Positions 963 through 50,746 of a DNA stretch of 64,000 nucleotides are shown one piece after another. The stretch comes from an uncultured Candidatus Saccharibacteria bacterium (GTDB taxonomy: Bacteria > Patescibacteriota > Minisyncoccia > Spechtbacterales > 2-12-FULL-38-22). The stretch is taken from positions 341 through 64,340 of the forward strand of contig CAYMUG010000002.1 in NCBI GenBank assembly GCA_964393575.1. Reading direction: 5' to 3'. A program made the translations under genes and the position numbers. Position 1 is the first letter of the stretch. Every line of letters starts with the position of its first letter. The notes beneath the pieces are model-generated. The model searched no databases. It worked only from the letters and a program-made list of their open reading frames with translations, and was not told the origin of the DNA.

Positions 963-991
963 ATTATATAATATTAAGTCAAGTGTGTCAA
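963..991 (-). promoter_or_regulatory. sigma70 consensus promoter TTGACA-17-TATAAT oriented toward the 175..798 gene
   Basis: On the minus strand: TTGACA(991-986)-17 nt-TATAAT(968-963). Confidence 0.55.
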
Positions 992-17400: not shown

Positions 17401-18552
17401 TCAGTCGTAGCACTCTTTTATTTCTTCCTCCGCGGGTTTATTCAAAGGAGTGAAGGTCGCATCTTCTTCAGGATTTGGAGGAGACCAGATATTTGCAGCC
17501 CACCAGTATATACCGTCTATGTATGGCTTCCAGGCATCACAAGATGCCTTATAAAACTTTCTCTGTGCTTCTAAGCTAATCGGTGTTCCGTGGTCCCATC
17601 TCCAGCTATACTGCCACGAACCTCTTTGAGAGGTAGTGCCCATTTCTGATATCACCAGAGGCTTGTTCAGTGCTTGTGCCCTCTCTATCTGCCTCTGTAC
17701 TATTTGGCTCCATTCTTGTCTTATCTTTTGCGGCGAAGACCCTATAGGCGCGTTAAGTTGAAAAAAAGCATCCATAGAGATAAAATCTAAGTCGTTCCAC
17801 GGCATTCCATTCTCTATGTTTCTGTTGACGGAATAAGTCAACTGTCCGCTGAATTTATTTCTTGCGTTTTCAATAAATTCACGCCAGCGGTCTGTATATT
17901 TTTCCATAGATACCAGCTCTGCACCTATGGTGAATATATCCGCGTTTGTTTGTTCGCCGAGTTGGGCGTACTCAAGTAAAAGTTCTTGGTAGTTACCAAA
18001 CCAGTCGTCTATATCTGCAGGTTCAATGGTGCCGCGCCATTCGCCCGTGCCTTCTATGTTTTCTTCATCAATTATAGGACGCAAATTAACTGTGAAGTTT
18101 CTTTCTTTCGCTTTAGTGATAAAAAGTTTTATCGCATTAGTTGAAGGCGTCTTTTCATTGTGCTTCCAAAACTCTGTTCCGTGTAATCCGTCCTGAAACA
18201 CGGGCCAGTTTAAGCTCAAGCTGTTTATTTCCAAGCTTATCAATCTGTCAAAAAGACGGTTCAGTTTTCTATTCAACTCATCCATACCAGAATAGTCCGT
18301 TCCATATAACAATACCGCGATACCTGCGTGGAAGTCACTCTCTTTCTCGCGCGGATCTTTAACTTTTTTTATCGGGATAGAAGTAGGCGTAGGTGTAGGT
18401 GTGGGCGCGATTTTTATACGACCCTTTTTCTCTTCTGTAGATTGTTGCTCGTCGTTTTGCTCGAATTGGCTTTGGCTTCCATCGTCTCTTACCAGAAATA
18501 TTCCACCTACAATGAAAACAACAGCTATAGCTACTAATGCGACTGTTTTCAT
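17401..18552 (-). CDS. membrane-anchored TIM-barrel glycoside hydrolase (GH5/GH26/GH113-like)
   Basis: N-terminal TM followed by a PTPTPTPT linker. A catalytic-Glu-like VISEMG and a WAANIW motif are present. Confidence 0.55.
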   Translation of the reverse strand: MKTVALVAIAVVFIVGGIFLVRDDGSQSQFEQNDEQQSTEEKKGRIKIAPTPTPTPTSIPIKKVKDPREKESDFHAGIAVLLYGTDYSGMDELNRKLNRLFDRLISLEINSLSLNWPVFQDGLHGTEFWKHNEKTPSTNAIKLFITKAKERNFTVNLRPIIDEENIEGTGEWRGTIEPADIDDWFGNYQELLLEYAQLGEQTNADIFTIGAELVSMEKYTDRWREFIENARNKFSGQLTYSVNRNIENGMPWNDLDFISMDAFFQLNAPIGSSPQKIRQEWSQIVQRQIERAQALNKPLVISEMGTTSQRGSWQYSWRWDHGTPISLEAQRKFYKASCDAWKPYIDGIYWWAANIWSPPNPEEDATFTPLNKPAEEEIKECYD

Positions 18553-18561
18553 CTTTTCTCC

Positions 18562-20115
18562 TTACTTGGTTTTGTTGATAACTTCAAAGGAATAGTTTTT
18601 CTTTAAAAAACGCCATATTCCCAAAAAAGCTGAAAATGCCTCCACCGCTGTAAACGCGTAAACGAGCGGAGCCATTATTAAGGTGTCTGTCAGGTTCTTT
18701 AACTTGTGGCTTCTATTACAAATAAGACCCCCGAAGAGCAAAGTCCCTAATCCGAACTTTTTTCTTCTGGTAAATTTCGATACACTTCTGTTGATGCGCA
18801 GTCCCTCGCTGTATGCCCATATAAAATAGGCGAGCGTAAAACTCCAAATTAAAACTACCCAGTTAGATACAGGGGAGGTGTTTCCTATGCCCGTAAAATG
18901 TGATACGAGCAGCACAACTCCCACAAACTGAAACGGACCCAGAGCCCAAGTGATCACGGTGTACATAAGCGGAGCCCGTGTCTTGAAGGGTAGGTCACGT
19001 TTAAAAATAAGGTCTATCAGGCCCGCTGCCCATCGCCTTCTCTGACGGACAAAATCTCTAATAGTGTCAGGAGAAGCTCCGTAAGAAAATGAATTTAGCG
19101 CTTTAGACTTTCCCGGATATTTCCGGGAAAACTCAAGTCCAAAATAAGCATCTTCTACGAGGGTACTACCGAAATCCCATCCGATTTCTTCTTCTATGTC
19201 TGCTCTAATCAGAAGATGCTCTCCGTGTAAACCCGCAAGAGGGGTGCCAAAATCTTCAGTAAACAAACCGAATCGGCTTTTGTCATCCATCGGCCGCACG
19301 CTATCAGCCATGCGACAAAATCTTGATGCAGAAAGTTCTTTGGGAAAAGTCAGAATTCCCTGAGCCAAGTACTTTAATCCGTGGTACTTATCTATGAACT
19401 CTGCTATGGACGCGACTGTATCTGCGCCTACATGTGTATCATCATCCAGATGATACACATATGTGTCCTTTGTATGAAGGTTGAGTTCACGCCTAATAAG
19501 TATCCCGAAATGAGAAGCTCGAGCTTTAGCATTTGTATTTCGGGGAGTTTTATAGTCATGGGGAATAGTAATAACACGGATATTTTCAGAAAAGTGTAGA
19601 GAAGCAATCCATATTTTTAGTTCCTCTCTATACTCCGCTTTTTCTTCAACAAGGATATGAACTTCCCAATCATTTATATTGTTGGGAGCATGTTTTACAA
19701 CAGATTCGACCACTCTTTGAAGAGCGGGAAAAGTGTCTTTTCGGCAAACAGTCGGCACTAAGAATATAACCCTTTTTTCAGTTACTCCGCTATACGAAGA
19801 TACCTCAACATCATCATTTCTTGCCACCCTTATAAAACCTATCAAAGCGACAGGGCAATACAGCGACCAAACGAAAGTAAGGTACCAGTTCAAAAACGTG
19901 TTTTCCGGAGTTGCGATGTAAAATGAAATCGCTACTGCGATTAGGTATAAAATCAGAAACTTATATACATTTAAGCCTAAAACACGTTGGTTATCCTGTA
20001 TATCTGAAGCGGGTATTGCCGGATTCGCTGCTTGAGCCACGCTACGCCTCCTTATTTTTGCTGGGAAAGTCGGAAGGTTTGCGTTGTTAATGTGCAGACA
20101 ATGACGATAACACAT
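18562..20115 (-). CDS. processive family 2 glycosyltransferase (cellulose/chitin-synthase-like, multi-TM)
   Basis: D,D,D motifs and QRRRW (QxxRW) are present, flanked by TM segments. The true start may lie internal to the track ORF. Confidence 0.75.
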   Translation of the reverse strand: MCYRHCLHINNANLPTFPAKIRRRSVAQAANPAIPASDIQDNQRVLGLNVYKFLILYLIAVAISFYIATPENTFLNWYLTFVWSLYCPVALIGFIRVARNDDVEVSSYSGVTEKRVIFLVPTVCRKDTFPALQRVVESVVKHAPNNINDWEVHILVEEKAEYREELKIWIASLHFSENIRVITIPHDYKTPRNTNAKARASHFGILIRRELNLHTKDTYVYHLDDDTHVGADTVASIAEFIDKYHGLKYLAQGILTFPKELSASRFCRMADSVRPMDDKSRFGLFTEDFGTPLAGLHGEHLLIRADIEEEIGWDFGSTLVEDAYFGLEFSRKYPGKSKALNSFSYGASPDTIRDFVRQRRRWAAGLIDLIFKRDLPFKTRAPLMYTVITWALGPFQFVGVVLLVSHFTGIGNTSPVSNWVVLIWSFTLAYFIWAYSEGLRINRSVSKFTRRKKFGLGTLLFGGLICNRSHKLKNLTDTLIMAPLVYAFTAVEAFSAFLGIWRFLKKNYSFEVINKTK

Positions 20116-20146: not shown

Positions 20147-20175
20147 TTGACATTATTAATCGTAGGGTATATAAT
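20147..20175 (+). promoter_or_regulatory. sigma70 consensus promoter TTGACA-17-TATAAT upstream of the adhesin gene
   Basis: TTGACA 20147-52 and TATAAT 20170-75. Confidence 0.55.
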
Positions 20176-20229
20176 TAAGTGTCTTTAACAGTGCACGTTT
20201 AGTATTAAAAGTTAAAATTAAAGTAAAAT

Positions 20230-22617
20230 ATGTTTAATATGTTTAATAAGAATCGCAACCAAGTTTCAAATAGTGTTTTTTCTATTCCTTCTTCGGGATA
20301 TGAGGAAAAACGCGCACAAGGAATTAGAAAATTAAAAAACATTCCGGCAAAATCTTACCTAGCATTCGCTTTCAGTATTTTGTTTGTAGGAATTTCATTT
20401 ATGCCCGCGGTAAGCGGACTTACTGTATTTGCTGAAAATACACATACAATATCCGGAACTGTCTTTGAAAAGACGGATTCAGGTGACTTAGAAGGACTTG
20501 AGGATTGGACCGTAAAACTAATAGGTTATAACGAGGTGCGTGAAGCTGTGACCGGAAGTAATGGCGGTTATAGTTTTGCAGGTCTAACAGAGGGGGATTA
20601 TAAGGTTTGCCAAGTAAGAAAAATGGGTTGGCAAAAGATTGACTTTGATTCAACCGCTCCGGACCTCGGAAATTGTCATAATGTTACTATACACAGCAAA
20701 AACAAAACTGATGCTAACTTCTTTAATGAGTCCACCGATGCTGATAGTTTTAGTAACGCCCGCTTAACGGTAATAACTCATGTTGTTAATGATAGCGGAG
20801 GACAGAATGAGGCCTCTGATTTTACTACACAAATCGTGGGTAATCCCGGAACAAACAAAGCTATTGACGGTGCATCTGTGCCCGGCACAGAAATTACTGT
20901 TGAACCGGGGGAATACCACATAGATTCAACCTCAAATAATAATTACACCAAATTTTTGTTTGGCTGCTCCGAGAGAGAGCTCGGAGAAGGTGAGCACGGA
21001 ATGTGTGTTATCATTCAAAACGACATAGATACTGTATGTCCTCTGGAAAACAAGGAGAATAGAACCATAATTGGGTTTCCCGAAAGTTGGCATTTTAGTC
21101 ACCTTAATGCACGACATCCTGAAAATAATTCCAGAGGCCCGCTTGACCTTTTCAATCGACCTGAAAATGGTCTGTATGATGTAACAATGGTTTCCTTTGA
21201 CAACCACGATGAGAAGTCCGGACAACACCAACCTGAAGAACAATGGTTTTTCAAGGCATTTGATAAAAATGGAAATTCTGTGTTTACCTCTGATTCAATA
21301 GATGATCTTCCTGAAAACCAAAATCGGCTTACACAACAGGTCCACACTGATGTAGAGATTACCTCTGAAGTTCATTCTGTTTCTGTGCATCATAAACTTC
21401 CCGTTGATTCCGGCAATAATATAAACAGCATCAGTCCGCTTTGTATTGCCTTTGATAAAACAGATAGTACAGAGGAAGAACCTGAGGAAGAACCTGAGGA
21501 AGATGCCCACCTTACTCTTCACAAAACGGTAGTAAATGATGATGAAGGAGAAGCTACAGCGGATGACTTCCAATTATTTATTGACGGTGATTCCGCAGAC
21601 AGTGGCGAAGCGGTGGAGCTTGAGCCCGGAACATACACCGCAAGCGAAAACAGTGTAGAAGGTTACGCAGCTTCAGGCTGGACAGGAGATTGTTCTACAA
21701 ACGGAACGGTTACTCTCTCTGAGGGTGAGAATGCTCACTGTAGCATAACGAATAACGATATTCCCTCTGACAGCCCTCCCGCTGTAACCGGCTCTCCTAA
21801 CCTCACCCTTAATAAGAATGTTGTGCCGACAAGTACCAGCGCAGGAGAGGAAATTGAATTTACTATAACGATTGAAAATGAAGGTAACTCTGAAGCCGAG
21901 AACGCGATTCTTGAAGACACACTTCCGGAAGGGTTTACATTTCAGGAAACAGGGAGTGATTCAAGAGAATGGACACTCGGAGATATAGCTGCCGGCGGAG
22001 GTACGCGCGTAATTAACGCCGATGTCAGGATTGCAGAAGATGTAAATGCGGGGAATTACACTAACAATGCCAGTGTTGATGCTGATAATCATGCTGCGAT
22101 TGAAGATACAGCAGAAGTTAGTGTTACCTCTTCTTCCGAAGGAGAAGTTTTAGGTGAAGAGGCATCTCCTGTATTGGAAATCGTAAAAAGCGCGAACAAA
22201 GATTTTGTTAATCCCGGAGGCACCATTACGTTTACCGTGGCTGTTACAAACAGCGGTGAAGCTCCGGCCGAAAATCTGGTAGCAGGGGACACTCTTCCCG
22301 ACGGATTCCGTGATGCGAACGGAAATAAAGTTATAACTTTTGAAAAAGACCGACTTGATCCCGGAGAAACTTTCCAAGAGTCGTTTGTGGTAAGTGTGTC
22401 CGCAGACGCTGAAGCGGGTGAACAAACCAATGAAGCTTCCGCAGAAGCGGATAACCACGACACGGTTAAAACCACCGAAGATATTACCGTAAGGAAAGGA
22501 GCTGTGTTGGGCAAAACAGGAGTTTCTCCTATTGCTCTTACTTTATGGGTTGCAGCTTCTCTCTCATTAGTGTTCGGTGTATTTCAGGTACGAAGAACTC
22601 TTGCATCTGTAGCGTAA
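20230..22617 (+). CDS. large cell-surface adhesin-like protein (Cna-B/SdrD-like domain, paired-Cys beta-sandwich repeats, DUF11-like repeats) with a C-terminal sorting signal LGKTG-TM-RRT
   Basis: The N-terminus is signal/TM-like. ISGTVFEKTDSGDLEGLEDWTVKL matches Cna-B. LTLNKNVVPTSTSAGEEIEFTITIENEG matches DUF11. The tail reads VLGKTGVSPIALTLWVAASLSLVFGVFQVRRT. Confidence 0.75.
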   Translation: MFNMFNKNRNQVSNSVFSIPSSGYEEKRAQGIRKLKNIPAKSYLAFAFSILFVGISFMPAVSGLTVFAENTHTISGTVFEKTDSGDLEGLEDWTVKLIGYNEVREAVTGSNGGYSFAGLTEGDYKVCQVRKMGWQKIDFDSTAPDLGNCHNVTIHSKNKTDANFFNESTDADSFSNARLTVITHVVNDSGGQNEASDFTTQIVGNPGTNKAIDGASVPGTEITVEPGEYHIDSTSNNNYTKFLFGCSERELGEGEHGMCVIIQNDIDTVCPLENKENRTIIGFPESWHFSHLNARHPENNSRGPLDLFNRPENGLYDVTMVSFDNHDEKSGQHQPEEQWFFKAFDKNGNSVFTSDSIDDLPENQNRLTQQVHTDVEITSEVHSVSVHHKLPVDSGNNINSISPLCIAFDKTDSTEEEPEEEPEEDAHLTLHKTVVNDDEGEATADDFQLFIDGDSADSGEAVELEPGTYTASENSVEGYAASGWTGDCSTNGTVTLSEGENAHCSITNNDIPSDSPPAVTGSPNLTLNKNVVPTSTSAGEEIEFTITIENEGNSEAENAILEDTLPEGFTFQETGSDSREWTLGDIAAGGGTRVINADVRIAEDVNAGNYTNNASVDADNHAAIEDTAEVSVTSSSEGEVLGEEASPVLEIVKSANKDFVNPGGTITFTVAVTNSGEAPAENLVAGDTLPDGFRDANGNKVITFEKDRLDPGETFQESFVVSVSADAEAGEQTNEASAEADNHDTVKTTEDITVRKGAVLGKTGVSPIALTLWVAASLSLVFGVFQVRRTLASVA

Positions 22618-22679
22618 AATAACTTCTCACTTTAGTTCAGGAGCAGGAAAAATTGATTCTACTCTCCTGAATTTTCCCT

Positions 22680-23432
22680 ATGGACTTAATACCGATTGAC
22701 TTCGCTCCTTCTTATGAGGCGGGGTTGGATACAAAAAAGATTTTATATCTAAAATCACACAGATATAAACCCAACAAAAAACGGGTGAAGCTTTCGGTGT
22801 GGCTAGGAGTTATTTTGGTTACATTAAGCGCCGCTGCTTATCCGGTTATGCCTATGGTTATGTACAAAATTAACCCGCCTGAAGTTTCAGAAACAGAAAC
22901 TTTGCCCGCCACATACACAGCAAATGACGGAGAAAATAGTGTAAACACGAGTAGGGCAGAGGAGACCGGCAGCAGTAACCGCACACCCGAAAGTCGTAAT
23001 ACTGCCTCTGCCGCAACCACTCAAGAGAGAACCAATCGTCTTGTAATTCCTAAAATAGATGTAGATATAGAAATTATAGGGGGCAATAATGCCGAATATG
23101 CATGGAGCAAAGGAGCATGGCATCAACCGGGAACTTCTTCTCCGGACAATGGCGGTAATATGGCGTTAAGTGCTCACAGGTTTCGTTATCAACCCCCTCA
23201 CACAGAAACTTTTTATCTCTTGGATAAACTGGAGACAGGCGACCACTTTTTCATTTATTGGGAAGGAAAAGTTTATAAATATAAGGTTAAAAAAGAAGAG
23301 GTGGTAAGCCCTTACGCAACTGAAATTCTTGAACCCACAGAAGAACCTGTTGCAACCCTTTATACGTGCGCCCCTCTTTTTTCCACTGAAAACCGCCTGT
23401 ACGTACGGGGAGAGTTGATGAGTATTAATTAA
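22680..23432 (+). CDS. sortase family transpeptidase
   Basis: N-terminal TM. The His motif GNMALSAHR, the catalytic TLYTCAP (TLxTC) and a downstream Arg (RLYVRGEL) are present. Confidence 0.8.
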   Translation: MDLIPIDFAPSYEAGLDTKKILYLKSHRYKPNKKRVKLSVWLGVILVTLSAAAYPVMPMVMYKINPPEVSETETLPATYTANDGENSVNTSRAEETGSSNRTPESRNTASAATTQERTNRLVIPKIDVDIEIIGGNNAEYAWSKGAWHQPGTSSPDNGGNMALSAHRFRYQPPHTETFYLLDKLETGDHFFIYWEGKVYKYKVKKEEVVSPYATEILEPTEEPVATLYTCAPLFSTENRLYVRGELMSIN

Positions 23433-23463: not shown

Positions 23464-23500
23464 AAAAACTCGGTTCAATCTATAGGTTGAGCCGAGTTTT
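23464..23500. terminator. terminator hairpin actcggttcaatc-tata-ggttgagccgagt (paralog of 1047-1084)
   Basis: The stem is nearly identical to the copy at 1053-1081. Confidence 0.6.
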
Positions 23501-23587
23501 GTGTTTATATATAACACTCATATAAAACTATGGCTGATGCAATTAAATATGTAGACACAGGAAAAAATTTGTGTTATTATAAATACA

Positions 23588-24601
23588 ATGAAGGGGTTTA
23601 AAAAATTTTTAAGTAAAGCGTTTATACCGGGGGCGGAAAATAATTTTACACCTTCCGCGTTTAGTATAAACGCTTTTATTGTTTACGGGATTCTTGTAAT
23701 GCTGACTATGGGTGTTTTGACGCAGGGTTTATTTATAGATTCTTTTTTAGCTAATATTACGCGCAACCTTGTCGTCCAAGAAGTTAATCCCGTAAGAAAT
23801 AATTTAGACCTCCCGGAACTACAGGAAAACCCCGCTCTTTCCAGGGCGGCACAAATGAAAGCTGAAGATATGATACGCCGCGATTACTTTTCGCACACAG
23901 GTCCGGCAGGGGAGGAGCCCTGGGTGTGGTATGAGAAAACCGGTTATGATTTTTCTTTAGCGGGGGAAAATTTAGCTATAGATTTCAATGACCCCTCTCT
24001 TTTAATGGATGCATGGCTTGATTCACCGAGCCACGCGCGTAATATTTTAAACAGTTATTTTGAAGATATAGGTATAGGGGTAGCAAGAGGGGAGTTCAGG
24101 GGTAGAAACACAACGGTGGTTGTGATGTTCTTAGGTAAAGAAGTAGGCAGCACCCGAACCGCCTCTGCCGAAGAGGAAACCGCACCCGAAGAAAATAGTC
24201 CTCCTGAAAATAACGAGGATATAGCGGGTGAAACCTCTAACGAAGAGCCTCAACAAAGTGAAACCGAAGTGACCCCTGTCACAAAAGACCCGCAAATTGT
24301 GCCGGCTGAAGAGTTGGTTATAGCCAAAAAAGCGGATTCCAAAGTATTACAGACCGGCAAAGAAACCTTAGTAGGAGAGGAAGTACAAAAATTACAAAAG
24401 CGCCTGGAGAATCCCGAAAAAAGTGCTAAAAATGAAATAATATCCGGAACCCCGGAAACAGTTAGAGCAATCTTCTCCGTTTTCTTTACAGGGCTGTTTT
24501 TCTGGTTGATTGCTGCCGCATTTATATACAAAACAAGCACATACTTTTACTTACCCCGCATTCTTCTTTTAGCTGCTATGACAATTGTTTTGTGGATATA
24601 A
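23588..24601 (+). CDS. CAP/SCP/PR-1 domain protein with N- and C-terminal TM segments
   Basis: The CAP core is present (FSHTGP...GENLA...DAWLDSPSHARNIL...IGIGVA). Confidence 0.75.
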   Translation: MKGFKKFLSKAFIPGAENNFTPSAFSINAFIVYGILVMLTMGVLTQGLFIDSFLANITRNLVVQEVNPVRNNLDLPELQENPALSRAAQMKAEDMIRRDYFSHTGPAGEEPWVWYEKTGYDFSLAGENLAIDFNDPSLLMDAWLDSPSHARNILNSYFEDIGIGVARGEFRGRNTTVVVMFLGKEVGSTRTASAEEETAPEENSPPENNEDIAGETSNEEPQQSETEVTPVTKDPQIVPAEELVIAKKADSKVLQTGKETLVGEEVQKLQKRLENPEKSAKNEIISGTPETVRAIFSVFFTGLFFWLIAAAFIYKTSTYFYLPRILLLAAMTIVLWI

Positions 24602-24627: not shown

Positions 24628-24656
24628 AAACCCGCGCTGTTTCGCGCGGGTTTTTT
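24628..24656. terminator. terminator hairpin aaacccgcgc-tgtttc-gcgcgggttt + T6
   Basis: A near-identical copy at 25094-25121 points to local duplication. Confidence 0.6.
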
Positions 24657-25005
24657 AGGAACCTTTATATTTACCTCTTAATTTGTTTATAATTTTTCTT
24701 AGTTTTTCTGTTGTTTTGTAATATAGTTCTTTTATGGCTTGTGCTATAATCACACACAGCCCACCGAGAATAACCGCAACCAGTCCGGCAGCAAACAAAA
24801 TGCCTGAGGTATTATAGCTTATCTCCTCGCCATTGATAAGCGTAATCACGCCTGCAACTAACACGCTAAGTAAAGTATCATCGCTTATCTCTACCCCCAA
24901 GAATAGCATGGATAAATAAGTTAACTCTTTCCATACCTCAAAAAATAACAGTATATAAATCAGAAGAAGTACCACAATTATTAATCTGCACATCCACCGA
25001 ACCAT
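24655..25005 (-). CDS. small membrane protein, divergent member of the tandem two-TM paralog array
   Basis: Hydrophobic helices and a C-terminal IxELYxK-like motif are shared with the neighbours. Confidence 0.5.
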   Translation of the reverse strand: MVRWMCRLIIVVLLLIYILLFFEVWKELTYLSMLFLGVEISDDTLLSVLVAGVITLINGEEISYNTSGILFAAGLVAVILGGLCVIIAQAIKELYYKTTEKLRKIINKLRGKYKGS

Positions 25006-25093
25006 CCAACCTCCTTTTGTAGAAGAACTAATTATATGATATCAACTATATTGTCACTTTGCCATACAGACAGACCACCTTTTAAAAAATTTT

Positions 25094-25121
25094 AAACCCG
25101 CACTGTTTCGCGCGGGTTTTT
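25094..25121. terminator. duplicate of the aaacccgcrc-tgtttc-gcgcgggttt hairpin
   Basis: It differs from 24628-24653 at one position. Confidence 0.55.
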
Positions 25122-25149
25122 AAGAGCGTTTAGTTTATTTATTAGTTTT

Positions 25150-25416
25150 TCAGCGTTCCAGTTTCTCTCTTATTTTGCTGTATATTGTTTTTGCCGTAAA
25201 CGCTATGCCTGCAATCATCGCAAACAGCATAACAGCGGCAGTAAAAGCCATTACTATTGCTACAGTGACACTCATAGCATCATGTACTTCTGTGGGTCTA
25301 TAATATACGAAAATGTAACTCAGCGCTCCCCAGGTGCCGAGAAATAACATTATAAAGAACAAGGTGAATCCGGTGGCTATGAGGGCGCTGCCTATCGATT
25401 CATACGTTTTACGCAT
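25150..25416 (-). CDS. small two-TM membrane protein (paralog array member C)
   Basis: The motifs LGTWGALSYI and MIAGIAFTAKTIYSKI are shared with 25409..25921. Confidence 0.55.
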   Translation of the reverse strand: MRKTYESIGSALIATGFTLFFIMLFLGTWGALSYIFVYYRPTEVHDAMSVTVAIVMAFTAAVMLFAMIAGIAFTAKTIYSKIREKLER

Positions 25417-25921
25417 CTAATCTCCTCTCTATCGTGTTATAGATTGCTTTTGCTACTGCTACTATAATTACAAACAGCACAATAGTCGTAAAACCAGTTA
25501 CACCTATGGCTAACATTATACCTGAAAAACCACCACTTATATCTATACCCAAGGATAAGAAGTAACCCCAGACGCTGAAAAACAATATTATGGGAATCAA
25601 AGTCAATACAGCAGCTATCACTCTGCGCATTCGATAGGGCATCCAAACATTAAGTTCCGGCACTCTTCTAATTTCTTCCATGATAAAGCTATATATTACC
25701 TCTGCCGTGAACGCAATACCCGCAATTAACCCAATCAGCACAGCAATAGCAGCCAACCCCATTCCTATTGAGAAGATTACCCCCACAGCATCATATACCT
25801 CTACGGGTCCGTGCGATGCAAGAATATAAGTCAGCGCTCCCCATAGGCCGAGGAGTAAAAATACGATGAGCGCAGTGAGTGCCGTAGCTGTCAGCTTGCG
25901 CTTGAGTATACCCACATACAT
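25409..25921 (-). CDS. membrane protein made of two tandem copies of the two-TM module
   Basis: Internal repeat: LGLWGALTYI...LIAGIAFTAEVIYSFI, then SVWGYFLSL...VAVAKAIYNTIERR. Confidence 0.55.
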   Translation of the reverse strand: MYVGILKRKLTATALTALIVFLLLGLWGALTYILASHGPVEVYDAVGVIFSIGMGLAAIAVLIGLIAGIAFTAEVIYSFIMEEIRRVPELNVWMPYRMRRVIAAVLTLIPIILFFSVWGYFLSLGIDISGGFSGIMLAIGVTGFTTIVLFVIIVAVAKAIYNTIERRLDA

Positions 25922-25954
25922 CTACATTCTCCTTTTTGTTGAAGAACGTGTTTC

Positions 25955-26191
25955 TTACTCCCCGAAATAAATTGCCTCATAGAGTTCTTTTGTTAATCTT
26001 GCTGCAACATAAACCAAAAGAGACAACATAATAGTGACAATCAAACTCAATACAATCGCAACGAAAATGACCGCGAAAGTATACGCTTCTCCTTCGAAAT
26101 ACATGTAAATGTTATAAGCGAGTACTCCCCAGATACCCAAAAATGACAGTGCAGACATAAGGGCGAGTGCAGCGGATACCTTTTTGCGCAT
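25955..26191 (-). CDS. small two-TM membrane protein (paralog array member A, first gene of the operon)
   Basis: The motif LGIWGVLAYNIY is present. AAGGAG lies 6 nt upstream. Confidence 0.55.
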   Translation of the reverse strand: MRKKVSAALALMSALSFLGIWGVLAYNIYMYFEGEAYTFAVIFVAIVLSLIVTIMLSLLVYVAARLTKELYEAIYFGE

Positions 26192-26227: not shown

Positions 26228-26256
26228 ATTATAATCACTTTCAAGTGTACTGTCAA
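26228..26256 (-). promoter_or_regulatory. perfect sigma70 consensus promoter TTGACA-17-TATAAT driving the small-membrane-protein array
   Basis: On the minus strand: TTGACA (26256-26251)-17 nt-TATAAT (26233-26228). Confidence 0.6.
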
Positions 26257-46780: not shown

Positions 46781-46808
46781 TTGACATTGTATATATATAG
46801 GGTATAAT
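46781..46808 (+). promoter_or_regulatory. sigma70-like promoter TTGACA-16-TATAAT
   Basis: TTGACA 46781-86 and TATAAT 46803-08. Confidence 0.5.
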
Positions 46809-47385: not shown

Positions 47386-47414
47386 TTGACAAATTATTTT
47401 TAATATATTATAAT
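47386..47414 (+). promoter_or_regulatory. perfect sigma70 promoter TTGACA-17-TATAAT upstream of GC-rich island 2
   Basis: TTGACA 47386-91 and TATAAT 47409-14. Confidence 0.55.
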
Positions 47415-47456: not shown

Positions 47457-48416
47457 TTGCCTAAAGTTCCCGCTCCCGTTGTTGTGGCGATCGTTATTTC
47501 AATTCTCGCGCTATGCGGTGCGGGATTTGTTGTTTTTAAGAAGAACGCTGAAGCCGAACAAGCTCGACTTCAGAATCAGCTTGAGCATTCGCAATCTCGA
47601 GCTGATACTTTGAAAAGCACTGTTGACGATATCTCCCCAAAGGTGAAGTCACTAAAAACCCGCGCCGAAGAGGCCGAAGAGTTAGAAAAAGAGAACTCCC
47701 GACTAAGGAAGGAGCTTAACAAAGAGAGAACAACCACGGAAACAACACAAACCAGAACGGAAGAAGAAGAGGAGAAGGAAGAGGAAGAGGTTTCTGAAAC
47801 ACCTTCCTCTTCATCGCCCAACCCCTCGCCTACACCGGAACCCAATCGGGTTCGCGGTCATGGCGAAAAGATGGTTTTGACGTTTGATGATGGAGGTGCG
47901 CCAAATAAAGTCACGGCCATTCTGAACATTCTGAACAATAAAAATGTTCAAGCTGTGATGTTCCTGAACGGAAGATGGGCACACGCCCATCCCGACTTAG
48001 TTCGCCGTATGCGAGCCGAGGGACATATCGTAGCAAACCATACTTGGTCTCACGCGAAGCTCACCGAACTTCCCGATGAGGAAGTTCGGAGGGAAATCCG
48101 GCGTGGCGCGCAGGAAGGTTCGGATCTGTTCCGCCCTCCGTACGGAGCCATTGATGCCCGTGTTCGCGGCATTGTGCAAAGCATGGGTCTTCGGACTATG
48201 CTCTGGGACATTGACACCCGCGACTGGGACAACACCTCGGCAGACGAGATTACCCGGATCACACTGAATAACGCCCGGCCGGGAGCTGTAGTGCTTCTGC
48301 ATCTCCACGGAGAACATACCGCAGAAGCGTTGCCGCGCATGATCGACGGTCTGCGCAATCAGGGCTATACATTTGGCCTTCCCGCCCCCGAGAAGGAGGA
48401 AAGTAATGCTACGTAA
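47457..48416 (+). CDS. polysaccharide deacetylase (CE4/NodB) with N-terminal TM, coiled coil and an acidic/Pro-rich linker
   Basis: The NodB motifs TFDDG, HTWSH and RPPYG are present. The gene is GC-rich. Confidence 0.8.
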   Translation: MPKVPAPVVVAIVISILALCGAGFVVFKKNAEAEQARLQNQLEHSQSRADTLKSTVDDISPKVKSLKTRAEEAEELEKENSRLRKELNKERTTTETTQTRTEEEEEKEEEEVSETPSSSSPNPSPTPEPNRVRGHGEKMVLTFDDGGAPNKVTAILNILNNKNVQAVMFLNGRWAHAHPDLVRRMRAEGHIVANHTWSHAKLTELPDEEVRREIRRGAQEGSDLFRPPYGAIDARVRGIVQSMGLRTMLWDIDTRDWDNTSADEITRITLNNARPGAVVLLHLHGEHTAEALPRMIDGLRNQGYTFGLPAPEKEESNAT

Positions 48417-48696
48417 AAAGTTGGTAGCTGCCATACTGATGGCCGTACTCGCAACAGCGAGTGCTGCCTCAGCAGCCCATGAGGTAATTGAGGCAAGCGA
48501 CCTCCGGGAAGAGAATACTCAACTTCAGGATGAAGTTGAATCACTTTCCGAGGAGCGTGAAACCCTTGAACGCTTCGCTCGGCTCCAAGAAAAACACGAA
48601 GAGCTGAGCGGGAAAGCGAAGAAAACCGACCAGAAAGTGCGAGATCTGAAAGAGAAAAAAACAGGGCTTACGCGAGCATTGGAGGAGCACCGATGA
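48406..48696 (+). CDS. small membrane-anchored coiled-coil protein
   Basis: ORF with a TM segment and heptad repeats. GC-rich. Confidence 0.45.
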   Translation: MLRKKLVAAILMAVLATASAASAAHEVIEASDLREENTQLQDEVESLSEERETLERFARLQEKHEELSGKAKKTDQKVRDLKEKKTGLTRALEEHR

Positions 48697-49442
48697 GAAA
48701 CGAATTTTTCGCTAGAGTCAATTTCTTCGTTGGCTTTACTGCAATCACGGCGATCATTGTCGCCGTTAGTGCCGCTTTGCTCCTCGTCACGAACGTCGAG
48801 GAGCCCCAACAGGCCAATGCTCAGCTAAAAGAGCAGAAGGCCGAGCTCTCTAGCAGCGTCAGCGAGATGCGCGAAAAGCATAAGGTGAGCGGGAAGCCTT
48901 CCCTCTCTCCTCAGGTTTCTGAACTCGAGGAGGGGGTTCAGAGACTTCGCTCGGAGGTCGGTACTCTTTCGGGGAAAAAGAAAAACCTCGAAAAAGAGGT
49001 TGCCGGACTTCGTGAGAATGTGCGCGAAGCCCGGGAAGCCCGGGAAGCCAGAGAAGCCGAAGAGAGGCAATCCCAATCCCGCCAGAGTCAGAGCGCTCAT
49101 AGCGGTCGCACTCCGGCAAGTGCGCGGGCACTCGGCCGCCAGATGGCCGCCCAACGAGGTTGGGCAGGCCGTCAGTGGCCATGCCTGAATGAGCTCTGGA
49201 GACGGGAAAGTGGATGGCGCTATAACATCCAAAACCATACCCACCGGCGCCAAGGTCGAGCTATAGAAAACTCGGCCTACGGAATCCCGCAGGCGTTACC
49301 TGGCAGGAAAATGGCCAGCCACGGCGGCGACTGGCGCACCAACCCACGTACACAGATAGCGTGGGGGTTGGACTACATCGCCGACCGTTATGGAACGCCG
49401 TGCAACGCACTGGCATTCCATAACCGAAAAAACTGGTACTGA
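48693..49442 (+). CDS. membrane-anchored coiled-coil protein with a C-terminal lysozyme-like (SLT/GH23-like) transglycosylase domain
   Basis: C-terminal W.CL..LW.RESGW...N......SAYGIPQA...WGLDYI..RYG.PC resembles actinobacterial SLT-type domains. Encodes REAREAREA in its coiled-coil region. GC-rich. Confidence 0.5.
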   Translation: MRNEFFARVNFFVGFTAITAIIVAVSAALLLVTNVEEPQQANAQLKEQKAELSSSVSEMREKHKVSGKPSLSPQVSELEEGVQRLRSEVGTLSGKKKNLEKEVAGLRENVREAREAREAREAEERQSQSRQSQSAHSGRTPASARALGRQMAAQRGWAGRQWPCLNELWRRESGWRYNIQNHTHRRQGRAIENSAYGIPQALPGRKMASHGGDWRTNPRTQIAWGLDYIADRYGTPCNALAFHNRKNWY

Positions 49443-49452
49443 CGCTCCAGAA

Positions 49453-49549
49453 GAGAGGGGGAGTCGGTACTCAGGTGAGTACCGACTCCCCCTCTCGACC
49501 TGTTCTTTAGTAAAAAGGTCCCCGCAAGTTATATACTGCGGGGTTTTTT
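49453..49549 (+). terminator. strong 19-bp-stem GC hairpin (49453-49494) followed by the terminator ccccgc-aagttatatact-gcgggg + T6
   Basis: Read directly. Confidence 0.6.
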
Positions 49550-49666
49550 ATTTTGTAATAGTCATCGTCATAGTGATTTTATGTCAGTGTCAGTGTTGGT
49601 GCCTGCCATCTGCCATTGGTCATAATGGTTTTACGTCATCGTCATAGTCACAGTCATAGTGGTTTC

Positions 49667-50746
49667 TCACATCCCTCTCTTCCAGATCCTGTACTTGTCT
49701 ACCGCCCAACTCAACCAATATTTATAATTTAATTTATAATCCCGCGCGTGAAGGTAGTCAGTTCTAAACCCGCCGAATCCTTTTTTGAACAAAGTAAGAC
49801 CGTACCAGGGATGGCTTTTATTTTCCTCGTCTTTTGCAATACCCCAAAAGTTATAATATTGTTTACCTTTATTTTTAGCGTCCGTAATCGCACTCCACTG
49901 CACAAGGTGTGAGGCGGGAATTTTTTTATATTTTTCGTTTGTTGTATTCGCGCCATGGTGGTAATAAGCGCTGTGCCCGTAAAAAACAATAATAGCAGAT
50001 GCAACGGGGGTATCATTGTAATAACCTATATAAATCCCTATACCCTCTTCACCGAAATGATTGATTTGCGCTCTTATAAACTTTTCCGAAAATGGCGTAA
50101 ACCCGTGTTTATGCGCGGTTTCGTTGTATAATTTTAGAAAATCTTTAATCAAATCATCTGAAGTACCGCTTTTTACTTCCACCCCCTCTTTTTTAGCGCG
50201 TCTTACAAGGTTTCGCGTATTCTTGCGCATTTCCGCCATAAGTCCGTCTTCGGACTTAGATAAATCTATTGTCCAGGTAGTTTCAGCATGCATATAAATG
50301 GGTGCTGAACGATATCCCAATTCTTCAAATATCTCTCTGTTTTCTTCCGTATCTTTCAATAAAGGGCTTACTCTTATAAAACTTGTGTTTTCAGATTTTC
50401 CTAATTGTATAAAATAATCCGTAACTGTTTTTAGAATTTGAAATTTGTAATTTGAAATTTGTTTGTTACTTGTTATTTGGGATTTGAAATTTCCGTGTTC
50501 GCTTTGGGCGAACACGGGCCCGTGTGGAACAAATAAAAAATTACCGCGCCGCGCGTGCACTTTTACAACCATAGCAGCCGCTATAAGTTCTTCGTTTTTG
50601 TAAATACCTAAACGCCACACCTTATCCCCTAACCCGTGATTTAACTCTCCCCACGCCCACGAGTGTAGAAAAGAATGTTGCGTGCAGGATGTAATAAAAC
50701 CATCCCATCGTTCTTTATTTTCTATTTCTTTTATCTCCAAATCCAT
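49667..50746 (-). CDS. FemAB-family peptidoglycan interpeptide-bridge aminoacyltransferase
   Basis: FemABX fold signatures are present (SFLHSWAWGEL, FLFVPHGPV, a C-terminal GNAT-like half). Confidence 0.75.
   Translation of the reverse strand: MDLEIKEIENKERWDGFITSCTQHSFLHSWAWGELNHGLGDKVWRLGIYKNEELIAAAMVVKVHARRGNFLFVPHGPVFAQSEHGNFKSQITSNKQISNYKFQILKTVTDYFIQLGKSENTSFIRVSPLLKDTEENREIFEELGYRSAPIYMHAETTWTIDLSKSEDGLMAEMRKNTRNLVRRAKKEGVEVKSGTSDDLIKDFLKLYNETAHKHGFTPFSEKFIRAQINHFGEEGIGIYIGYYNDTPVASAIIVFYGHSAYYHHGANTTNEKYKKIPASHLVQWSAITDAKNKGKQYYNFWGIAKDEENKSHPWYGLTLFKKGFGGFRTDYLHARDYKLNYKYWLSWAVDKYRIWKRGM

What the first reader, a model, noticed from the sequence alone, without database searches (positions are those of the whole stretch)
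20147..23432. Adhesin-sortase pair with a non-canonical LGKTG sorting motif
Seen in sequence: the 795-aa surface protein ends in VLGKTG, followed by a 21-residue hydrophobic stretch and the basic tail QVRRT. That is the tripartite architecture of a cell-wall sorting signal, but Gly replaces the usual Pro/Ala at motif position 2. The next gene encodes a membrane-anchored sortase with the His (GNMALSAHR), catalytic Cys (TLYTCAP) and Arg motifs intact. The adhesin combines a Cna-B/SdrD-like domain, two paired-cysteine beta-sandwich repeats and DUF11-like repeats. Its gene sits behind a perfect TTGACA-17-TATAAT promoter. Inference: this is a dedicated housekeeping-independent sortase with a single cognate substrate and possibly novel LGxTG specificity.
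Basis: partly seen in the sequence, partly recalled or inferred. Interest (0 to 1): 0.6.

Follow-up and report, generated by a model that had tools for sequence, protein, structure and literature searches.

The report
CPR adhesin-sortase operon with LGxTG signal
A tiny-genome (Patescibacteria/CPR) bacterium encodes a stalk-like surface adhesin and, in the same operon, the sortase that most likely anchors it to the cell wall; the adhesin's LGKTG signal is a recurring variant in these bacteria, not a one-off, but the sortase looks like the general one rather than a private one.

Summary
A 795-aa protein (20230-22617) ends in LGKTG, a 21-residue hydrophobic stretch and a basic tail. A 250-aa membrane-anchored sortase with His166, Cys230 and Arg239 follows. 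A perfect sigma-70 promoter precedes the pair and a strong terminator hairpin follows it, so they form a two-gene operon.

The organism is a Patescibacteria (CPR) relative of 'Candidatus Spechtbacterales'. LGxTG is not a chance oddity. At least 13 distinct CPR surface proteins end in V-L-G-x-T-G, a membrane segment and a basic tail, and 11 of them lie beside a related sortase. Leu and Gly come from a conserved 'G-x-VLG' linker that follows each CLIPPER (DUF11) stalk domain. Relatives carry VLAxTG or VLPxTG in the same register, or VLG, a linker and LPxTG.

Among 94 substrates near CPR sortases, position 2 is P 52, A 15, G 11, with E, T and V also present. Gly is concentrated among the window sortase's closest relatives (8 of 11 versus 3 of 83). 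However, the tree support is weak and no diagnostic residue was found.

The 'dedicated, single-substrate' reading is not supported. The sortase-CAP gene pair lies in conserved core synteny and occurs without an adjacent adhesin in the nearest relatives. This is a new variant of a known kind, of moderate interest.

The parts
20147..20175 (+). Consensus sigma-70 promoter, TTGACA-17-TATAAT, 55 nt upstream of the adhesin ATG
   Evidence: Read directly. It scores 12/12 in the scan. The window has five perfect sites against 0.02 expected.
20230..22617 (+). Fibrillar adhesin, 795 aa. Order: signal peptide, weak Cna-B/SdrD-like domain, SpaA_2, orphan insert, SpaA_2, two CLIPPER (DUF11) domains, LGKTG sorting signal.
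   Evidence: An identical 792-aa protein, P0055, is in public data.
20347..20433 (+). N-terminal hydrophobic segment (aa 40-68) after a basic n-region. Inferred Sec signal peptide, with VFA|EN as a possible cleavage site.
   Evidence: Kyte-Doolittle scan. The cleavage site is inference only.
21025..21459 (+). Orphan insert (aa 266-410) between the two SpaA_2 domains, bracketed by Cys270 and Cys405. Candidate ligand-binding module.
   Evidence: No Pfam hit. Homologues do not cover it. The single-sequence AF2 model has pLDDT 38 and is unusable.
21802..22467 (+). Two CLIPPER (DUF11 / DUF7507) stalk domains (aa 525-620 and 646-746). Each is followed by the 'G-x-VLG' linker element.
   Evidence: Pfam and NCBIfam hits. 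The VLG element after both domains is shown.
22507..22521 (+). LGKTG pentapeptide (aa 760-764), the inferred sortase cleavage site between Thr and Gly.
   Evidence: The same register occurs in 13 distinct CPR proteins.
22522..22614 (+). 21-residue hydrophobic segment (nt 22522-22584) plus the basic tail QVRRTLASVA.
22680..23432 (+). Sortase, 250 aa. N-terminal TM (aa 36-62), disordered linker (aa 65-118) and catalytic domain (aa 119-250) with His166, Cys230 and Arg239.
   Evidence: Pfam Sortase 2e-22. Invariant residues. AF2 model with pLDDT above 90 over the catalytic domain. Sortase fold confirmed by Foldseek.
23465..23500 (+). Intrinsic-terminator-like hairpin (16-bp stem) followed by a U-rich tract. 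It ends the adhesin-sortase unit.
   Evidence: dG -26 kcal/mol, z -5.0.
23588..24601 (+). CAP/SCP (YkwD-like) membrane protein, a conserved downstream neighbour of this sortase family. It has its own promoter-like site at 23552-23580.
   Evidence: Pfam CAP 4e-16. It lies directly downstream of the sortase in 16 of 88 CPR loci.

Best explanation
This is a two-gene operon of a Patescibacteria (CPR) bacterium. It encodes a fibrillar surface adhesin and the sortase that most likely anchors it.

Proposed steps:
1. The adhesin is exported through Sec (inferred).
2. It is held in the membrane by its C-terminal hydrophobic segment and basic tail (shown in the sequence).
3. The sortase Cys230 cleaves it between Thr763 and Gly764 of LGKTG (inferred).
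4. The adhesin is transferred to peptidoglycan (inferred). MurG and FtsW are encoded in the same window.

The stalk is built from SpaA_2 and CLIPPER (DUF11) domains, and an orphan 145-aa insert is the candidate binding module.

The unusual Leu-Gly of the signal comes from a conserved 'G-x-VLG' linker that follows every CLIPPER domain in this protein family. Here x-T-G follows that linker directly. Relatives carry VLAxTG or VLPxTG in the same register, or VLG, a linker and LPxTG.

The sortase belongs to a CPR-specific clade that fits none of the curated classes. It appears to tolerate many residues at P3 (motif position 2). It is probably the organism's general sortase, not a private enzyme for this one protein.
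For: - Operon anatomy.
- Catalytic residues and fold.
- CPR origin and synteny with a Spechtbacterales MAG.
- Recurrence of V-L-G-x-T-G, TM and basic tail. In the HMMER search of 1.84e9 representatives: P0083, P0120, P0168, P0169, P0182, P0185, P0148. In loci: L003, L091 (338-aa protein), L093, L096, L117, L121.
- Adjacency to a sortase: L003, L088, L089, L091, L092, L093, L096, L117, L121. Overall, 59 of 94 putative substrates end within 100 nt of the sortase start.
- Same-register variants: VLAATG, VLADTG, VLAETG and VLPATG. Spaced variants such as VLGAELPETG.
- The VLG linker also follows the internal CLIPPER domain in every LG-type protein.
- P3 spectrum: P 52, A 15, G 11, E 4, T 4, V 4. 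Gly is enriched among the closest sortases, 8 of 11 versus 3 of 83.
- In the LG set, x varies (K, E, V, G, I, A, D, L) while L, G, T and G never do.
- The sortase-CAP pair occurs without an adjacent adhesin in L001 and L004. L091 has two LGxTG substrates.
Against: - No biochemical evidence exists for any CPR sortase. Cleavage at LGKTG and attachment to peptidoglycan are inferred by analogy.
- The invariance of Leu-Gly could come from the structural VLG linker rather than from sortase recognition.
- Grouping of the LG-associated sortases is not robust. Bootstrap is 37% and 9% for the window's group; only the small L003/L117/L121 group reaches 85%.
- No diagnostic residue was found.
- One LGxTG protein (L090) has no sortase in the 2.5 kb downstream that are available.
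- Only 64 kb of the genome is visible. The number of sortases and substrates in this organism is therefore unknown.
Confidence: 0.72

Rival explanations
1. A sortase subclade with true LGxTG specificity. The window's sortase and its closest relatives have co-evolved with substrates carrying Gly at P3. They discriminate against LPxTG and LAxTG, and the enzyme serves one or a few operon-linked adhesins.
For: All eight neighbouring substrates of the sortases grouped with the window's carry LGxTG. LG is 8 of 11 among sortases at least 56% identical, against 3 of 83 below that. L, G, T and G stay invariant while x varies and the sortases have diverged to about 55-60% identity. The adhesin and sortase share a promoter and a terminator.
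Against: Sortases 55-57% identical pair with LPATG, LAPTG and LPKTG. No column distinguishes the group. Bootstrap for the group is 9-37%. The Leu-Gly is also explained by the VLG linker. Sortase-CAP lies in core synteny and occurs without an adjacent substrate in L001 and L004. The association test is not phylogenetically independent.
Confidence: 0.2
2. Plain membrane anchor. The C-terminal segment is an uncleaved stop-transfer anchor, LGKTG is just the VLG linker followed by a chance x-T-G, and the neighbouring sortase acts on other proteins.
For: LPXTG anchor models gave no hit at E <= 0.01. Leu-Gly belongs to a linker element that also occurs internally, without a following TG.
Against: T-G follows VLG-x at exactly the same distance from the TM in 13 distinct proteins. 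The same register holds LAxTG and LPxTG in relatives. Eleven of these proteins lie beside a sortase, mostly ending within 100 nt of its start. The basic tail after the TM is conserved.
Confidence: 0.06
3. Pilus-assembly (class C-like) system. The sortase polymerises the adhesin into a pilus instead of, or before, wall anchoring.
For: The best sequence and fold matches are class C sortases. SpaA-type domains are typical of pilins.
Against: The class C model scores 81.7 bits against a cut-off of 160. There is no DP[FWY] lid motif, no C-terminal TM in the sortase and no YPK pilin motif in the adhesin. Class E and class A structures match almost equally well. Only one substrate gene is in the operon.
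Confidence: 0.02

Closest known systems
Class E (housekeeping, LAxTG) sortases of Actinobacteria, e.g. S. coelicolor SrtE1 (PDB 5CUW; PMC5148588)
   Same: It has an N-terminal membrane anchor and a long linker before the catalytic domain. Its substrates lack Pro at P3. Relatives in this CPR family use LAxTG in exactly the register where the window has LGKTG. SrtE1 accepts both LAETG and LPETG (PMC5148588), similar to the permissiveness inferred here. The fold match is E 3e-12. Some NCBI records name relatives 'class E sortase'.
   Different: The NCBIfam class E model scores 70.5 bits against a cut-off of 160. Sequence similarity to SrtE1 is only E 3e-7, weaker than to class C. P3 here is Gly, and relatives also use T, V and E. 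The organism is a CPR bacterium, not an actinobacterium. The class E hallmark Tyr in the beta3/beta4 loop could not be checked.
Class C (pilus-specific) sortases, e.g. GBS SrtC1 (PDB 4G1J)
   Same: These give the best sequence match (E 1.6e-13), the best fold match and the best NCBIfam score (81.7 bits). The gene is also operon-linked with a SpaA-domain substrate.
   Different: The score is below the cut-off of 160. There is no lid motif, no C-terminal TM and no pilin motif in the substrate.
Known isolated LGxTG sorting signals: C. diphtheriae SpaI (LGNTG) and an S. suis LGSTG protein
   Same: Gly at P3 appears in proteins listed as sortase substrates (PMC12445094 table; PMC7644249 table).
   Different: Those are single exceptions among LPxTG and LAxTG proteins of one genome. 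Here LGxTG is the recurring signal of a family of CPR adhesins and is built on a conserved domain-end linker.
CLIPPER (DUF11) fibrillar adhesins (PMC12617251; PDB 9IFR)
   Same: Tandem CLIPPER / CLIPPER_2 stalk domains combined with a signal peptide and a C-terminal sorting element.
   Different: The characterised CLIPPER domain comes from a Gram-negative OmpA-anchored adhesin. Here the anchor is a sortase signal in a CPR bacterium. Isopeptide-forming residues were not verified (one search was uninformative).

Membership tests
Sortase superfamily (Pfam PF04203, peptidase C60) | Pfam Sortase domain above the gathering score | tested here: met
   79.7 bits against 26.6. TIGR01076 scores 67.9 against 39.35.
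Sortase superfamily (Pfam PF04203, peptidase C60) | Catalytic His, Cys (TLxTC) and Arg triad | tested here: met
   H166, C230 and R239 are invariant in 22 homologues and in 10 homologues.
Sortase superfamily (Pfam PF04203, peptidase C60) | Eight-stranded beta-barrel sortase fold | tested here: met
   The AF2 catalytic domain has pLDDT above 90. Foldseek matches many sortase structures at probability 1.00, with rmsd as low as 1.5 A over about 135 columns.
Class E sortase | NCBIfam NF033747 at or above its cut-off | tested here: not met
   70.5 bits against 160.
Class E sortase | LAxTG substrates | tested here: inconclusive
   The window's substrate is LGKTG. Family relatives use LAxTG (15 of 94) but also P, G, T, V and E at that position.
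Class E sortase | Conserved Tyr in the beta3/beta4 loop contacting the P3 amide (PMC5148588) | not testable with these tools
   No residue-level alignment to 5CUW could be obtained.
Class C sortase | NCBIfam NF033745 at or above its cut-off | tested here: not met
   81.7 bits against 160.
Class C sortase | Lid with a DP(F/W/Y) motif, a C-terminal TM, and a substrate with a YPKN pilin motif | tested here: not met
   None of these is present.
Class D sortase | NCBIfam NF033746 or NF058671 at or above its cut-off | tested here: not met
   56.9 bits against 165 and 66.1 bits against 140.
Cell-wall sorting signal (LPXTG-type) | Pentapeptide, then a hydrophobic segment, then a positively charged tail at the extreme C-terminus | tested here: met
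   LGKTG, 21 hydrophobic residues and QVRRTLASVA.
Cell-wall sorting signal (LPXTG-type) | Match to the curated LPXTG anchor models (TIGR01167 / PF00746) | tested here: not met
   No hit at E <= 0.01.
Cell-wall sorting signal (LPXTG-type) | Cleavage between Thr and Gly and linkage to peptidoglycan | not testable with these tools
   This needs biochemistry or proteomics.
CLIPPER (DUF11) fibrillar adhesin | Tandem PF01345 / PF24346 domains above cut-off, with a signal peptide and an anchor | tested here: met
   DUF11 81.8 bits against 24.6. DUF7507 56.4 bits against 27. TIGR01451 82.6 bits against 24.
CLIPPER (DUF11) fibrillar adhesin | Intramolecular Lys-Asn isopeptide bond | not tested
   The match to 9IFR was only E 0.05 and no alignment was shown. 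Candidate K, D and N residues were seen by eye only.

The most novel reading that the evidence does not exclude
A Patescibacteria sortase lineage has a real preference for Gly at P3 (LGxTG), orthogonal to the LPxTG and LAxTG enzymes. Its recognition motif is built into the conserved 'G-x-VLG' end of the last CLIPPER stalk domain. If so, it would be a naturally orthogonal sortase-tag pair and the first defined surface-display rule for CPR episymbionts.
Probability: 0.2. Interest if true: 0.65.

Novelty: new variant of a known kind. Interest (0 to 1): 0.42.

Why it matters
CPR/Patescibacteria are mostly uncultured episymbionts. Their surface proteins presumably mediate host attachment, yet nothing is known experimentally about how they display those proteins.

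This locus and its relatives show a CPR-specific sortase clade linked to CLIPPER/SpaA-type fibrillar adhesins. The sorting signals vary unusually at P3 and include a recurring LGxTG form. Standard LPXTG models miss this form, so current annotation probably undercounts CPR surface proteins.

If the enzyme truly prefers LGxTG, it could also serve as an orthogonal tool for sortase-mediated ligation. If it is merely permissive, it is an ordinary housekeeping system with a locally drifted motif.

Tried and rejected
- The word-indexed protein search with the C-terminal 148 aa found nothing. It was replaced by the exhaustive HMMER search.
- The first genome-contig scan with the single sortase found nothing. 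The alignment-based scan worked.
- I looked for alignment columns that separate LG-associated sortases from the rest and found none.
- Bootstrapped NJ trees give weak support for the window's LG group, 37% and 9%. I therefore do not claim a monophyletic 'LG sortase' clade.
- Assignment to class A-F failed. All NCBIfam class models score below their cut-offs, and Foldseek ranks classes C, E and A almost equally.
- I could not obtain a residue-level alignment to SrtE1 to check the class E tyrosine.
- The AF2 model of the orphan insert (aa 262-412, single sequence) has pLDDT 38 and is unusable, so no fold search was run.
- The PDB sequence search with the CLIPPER region gave only spurious armadillo-repeat hits and a weak 9IFR hit. 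Isopeptide residues remain unverified.
- Rfam and tRNA scans of the window found nothing, so taxonomy rests on protein homologues and synteny.
- The pilus reading was rejected: no lid, no pilin motif and no C-terminal TM.
Full report
**1. The observation**

The ORF at 20230-22617 (+) encodes a 795-aa protein ending RKGAVLGKTG-VSPIALTLWVAASLSLVFGVF-QVRRTLASVA.
- LGKTG is aa 760-764 (nt 22507-22521).
- Only two hydrophobic segments exist: aa 40-68 (signal-peptide-like, after a basic n-region) and aa 763-787.

The next ORF, 22680-23432 (+), is a 250-aa protein with a Pfam Sortase domain (2e-22).
- It has one N-terminal TM helix (aa 36-62).
- A disordered linker (aa 65-118) precedes a catalytic domain modelled at pLDDT above 90.
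- His166 (SAHR), Cys230 (TLYTC) and Arg239 are invariant in homologue alignments.

- Two SpaA_2 domains (the paired-cysteine repeats; 82 bits).
- Two DUF11/DUF7507 domains, now named CLIPPER and CLIPPER_2 (PMC12617251).
- An N-terminal Cna-B/SdrD-like stretch that stays below Pfam cut-offs.
- A 145-aa insert (aa 266-410) between the SpaA_2 domains with no detectable relatives. It could not be modelled.

The promoter TTGACA-17-TATAAT at 20147-20175 is exact. The window holds five such perfect sites against 0.02 expected by shuffling, so the organism uses consensus promoters.

A 16-bp hairpin with a U-rich tail at 23465-23500 follows the sortase stop (dG -26 kcal/mol, z -5.0). The scan found no promoter-like site in the 62-nt gap between the two genes. 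The adhesin and sortase therefore look like a two-gene operon.

**2. Organism and genomic setting**

All sortase homologues come from Patescibacteria/CPR metagenome-assembled genomes.
- The best named hit, at 46% identity, is labelled 'Candidatus Spechtbacterales'.
- The window is syntenic with that MAG on both sides: CtpB-NIF3-L9-CTP synthase upstream, and sortase-CAP-XerC-like ... M23 peptidase-GltX-MurG-FtsW downstream.
- In that MAG, and in L004, the sortase-CAP pair has no adhesin next to it.
- In the window, the adhesin and a divergent GT2 + GH113 pair occupy the variable slot upstream of the sortase.
- The CAP-domain membrane protein lies directly downstream of the sortase in 16 of 88 CPR loci.

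This is the pattern of a core, general sortase with variable cargo genes placed in front of it. It is not the pattern of an accessory sortase dedicated to one protein. Within the 64-kb window there is one sortase and one candidate substrate.

**3. Whether LGKTG is a real sorting motif**

I searched 1.84 billion representative proteins with the last 147 residues. I also scanned ORFs around 170 sortase loci from genomes and metagenomes.

Thirteen distinct proteins end in V-L-G-x-T-G, a hydrophobic segment and a basic tail.
- They are the window protein, L003, L088/P0083, L089/P0168, L090/P0169, L091 (two proteins), L092/P0185, L093, L096, L117, L121/P0182 and P0148.
- The x position is K, E, V, G, I, A, D, L or S, while L, G, T and G never vary.
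- Eleven of the thirteen lie beside a sortase of the same family, usually ending within 100 nt of its start.

Relatives carry other motifs at equivalent positions.
- In exactly the same register: VLAATG, VLADTG, VLAETG and VLPATG.
- VLG followed by a short linker and a conventional motif: VLGAELPETG, VLGAEDLAETG, VLGALTTTG, VLGALVDTG, VLGATLEETG.

In every LG-type protein the same 'G-x-VLG' element also follows the internal CLIPPER domain, in the form ...G-x-VLGEExxPVLEI-K.... The Leu and Gly of the signal are therefore supplied by a conserved domain-end linker. In the LG-type proteins x-T-G follows that linker directly.

This explains the origin of the motif. It also means that Leu-Gly conservation is not, on its own, evidence of sortase specificity.

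**4. Specificity of the sortase**

Among 94 distinct putative substrates on the sortase strand, P3 (motif position 2) is P 52, A 15, G 11, E 4, T 4, V 4, S 2, D 1 and K 1.

Gly is concentrated among the sortases most similar to the window's.
- Eight of 11 substrates carry Gly where the catalytic domains are at least 56% identical, against 3 of 83 below that threshold.
- Fisher's test gives 2e-7, but the samples are phylogenetically related, so this is not an independent-events probability.

In neighbour-joining trees the LG-associated sortases form two groups.
- Group I: window, L001, L089, L091, L092, L093, L095, L096 and L103. Its sister, L097, has VLG-LAPTG. Bootstrap support is only 37% and 9%.
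- Group II: L003, L117 and L121. Its sister, L119, has VLAETG. Bootstrap support is 85%.

No alignment column distinguishes group I. Sortases 55-57% identical to the window's pair with LPATG, LAPTG and LPKTG.

The most economical reading is that this CPR sortase clade tolerates many residues at P3, with Gly a frequent local state. A true LGxTG-specific subclade is not excluded, and I give it about 0.2.

**5. Classification**

- All NCBIfam class models fall far below their cut-offs: class C 81.7, class E 70.5 and class D 56.9 bits, against 160-165.
- PDB sequence matches favour class C (1.6e-13) over SrtE1 (2.8e-7).
- Foldseek ranks classes C, E and A within one order of magnitude of each other.
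- The enzyme lacks the class C lid motif and C-terminal TM, and the adhesin lacks a pilin motif.
- Functionally it resembles class E housekeeping sortases. These use LAxTG and also accept LPxTG (PMC5148588). By the tests available here, however, it is not a member of that class.

**6. Novelty**

- No paper in the searchable library contains 'LGXTG'.
- Individual LGxTG signals are listed for C. diphtheriae SpaI (LGNTG; PMC12445094) and one S. suis protein (LGSTG; PMC7644249). Gly at P3 is therefore rare but not unprecedented.
- Literature that pairs sortases with CPR is very sparse.

What appears new is the systematic use of LGxTG by a family of CPR adhesins, its origin in the CLIPPER domain-end linker, and the breadth of P3 variation around one sortase clade.

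**7. Verdict**

- The adhesin-sortase pairing and the reality of the LGxTG signal are supported.
- The 'dedicated, single-substrate, housekeeping-independent' inference is not supported.
- 'Novel specificity' remains a testable hypothesis, with permissiveness the more likely answer.
- This is a new variant of a known kind, of moderate interest.

Noticed in passing
window 23588-24601; also L001 8868-10328, L004 8725-10299, L006 8661-10139, L088 8535-9590: A CAP/SCP (YkwD-like) protein lies directly downstream of the sortase in 16 of 88 CPR loci, and elsewhere in 8 more. It has an N-terminal TM and two C-terminal TM segments. The pair persists even where no adhesin is adjacent, which suggests a functional link between the sortase and this protein.
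   Followed up: partly
window 22138-22146 and 22504-22512 (aa 637-639 and 759-761 of the adhesin); also P0083, P0120, P0168, P0169, P0185: A conserved 'G-x-V-L-G' element follows each CLIPPER (DUF11) domain in CPR adhesins. Internally it continues as VLGEExxPVLEI-K into the next domain. Most sortase-adjacent CPR substrates carry VLG 0-15 residues before the sorting motif. Its role is unknown; it could be structural or an extended recognition element.
   Followed up: partly
window 21025-21459 (adhesin aa 266-410): An orphan 145-aa insert sits between the two SpaA_2 domains, bracketed by Cys270 and Cys405. It has no Pfam hit and no homologue outside the identical protein. The AF2 single-sequence model failed (pLDDT 38). 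It is a candidate host-binding module.
   Followed up: partly
window 24655-26191 (- strand): Four consecutive small membrane proteins (116, 88, 170 and 78 aa) show visible paralogy, for example ...LGxWGALxYI...GIAFTA...IY... They have no Pfam family (two of them tested). A perfect consensus promoter lies at 26256-26228.
   Followed up: no
window 963-991(-), 20147-20175(+), 26228-26256(-), 46781-46808(+), 47386-47414(+): The 64-kb window holds five perfect TTGACA-N16-18-TATAAT promoters against 0.02 expected. This CPR genome uses the full E. coli-type consensus unusually often.
   Followed up: partly
window 17401-20115 (- strand): A GH113 glycoside hydrolase (383 aa) and a multi-pass GT2 glycosyltransferase (517 aa) are transcribed divergently from the adhesin promoter. 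They are absent from the syntenic Spechtbacterales locus L001, so they may have arrived together with the adhesin. They could make a surface glycan.
   Followed up: no
L003 8642-9664; L006 10340-11146; L009 11938-13050; L017 10573-11679; L108 9729-10829: A second conserved neighbour lies downstream of CPR sortases. It is a secreted protein of about 270-370 aa with an Ig-like N-terminal part and a Trp-rich C-terminal membrane region, for example ...CGKYGWWPWVTIIMAMLITLFRPKKF. It has no Pfam hit on record.
   Followed up: no
L013 1-2019; P0060; L131 and L141: Some sortase-adjacent CPR substrates lack Leu at P4: VLGAEDTG (L013), VGAPNTG (P0060) and VPxTG (L131, L141). In this clade the signal may reduce to little more than x-T-G plus the TM.
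   Followed up: no
window 22902-22916 and 22950-22967 (sortase aa 75-79 and 91-96): The sortase's own disordered linker contains LPATY and AEETG, which resemble sorting motifs used by relatives (LPATG, LEETG, AEDTG). The linker is not conserved among homologues, so this is probably chance.
   Followed up: no
window 48001-50000: This segment has a GC content of 52.5% against a window average of about 40%. It has no rRNA or tRNA. It holds a 249-aa coiled-coil-like ORF at 48693-49442. A polysaccharide deacetylase gene (47457-48416) lies just upstream of the segment, with a perfect promoter in front of it.
   Followed up: no
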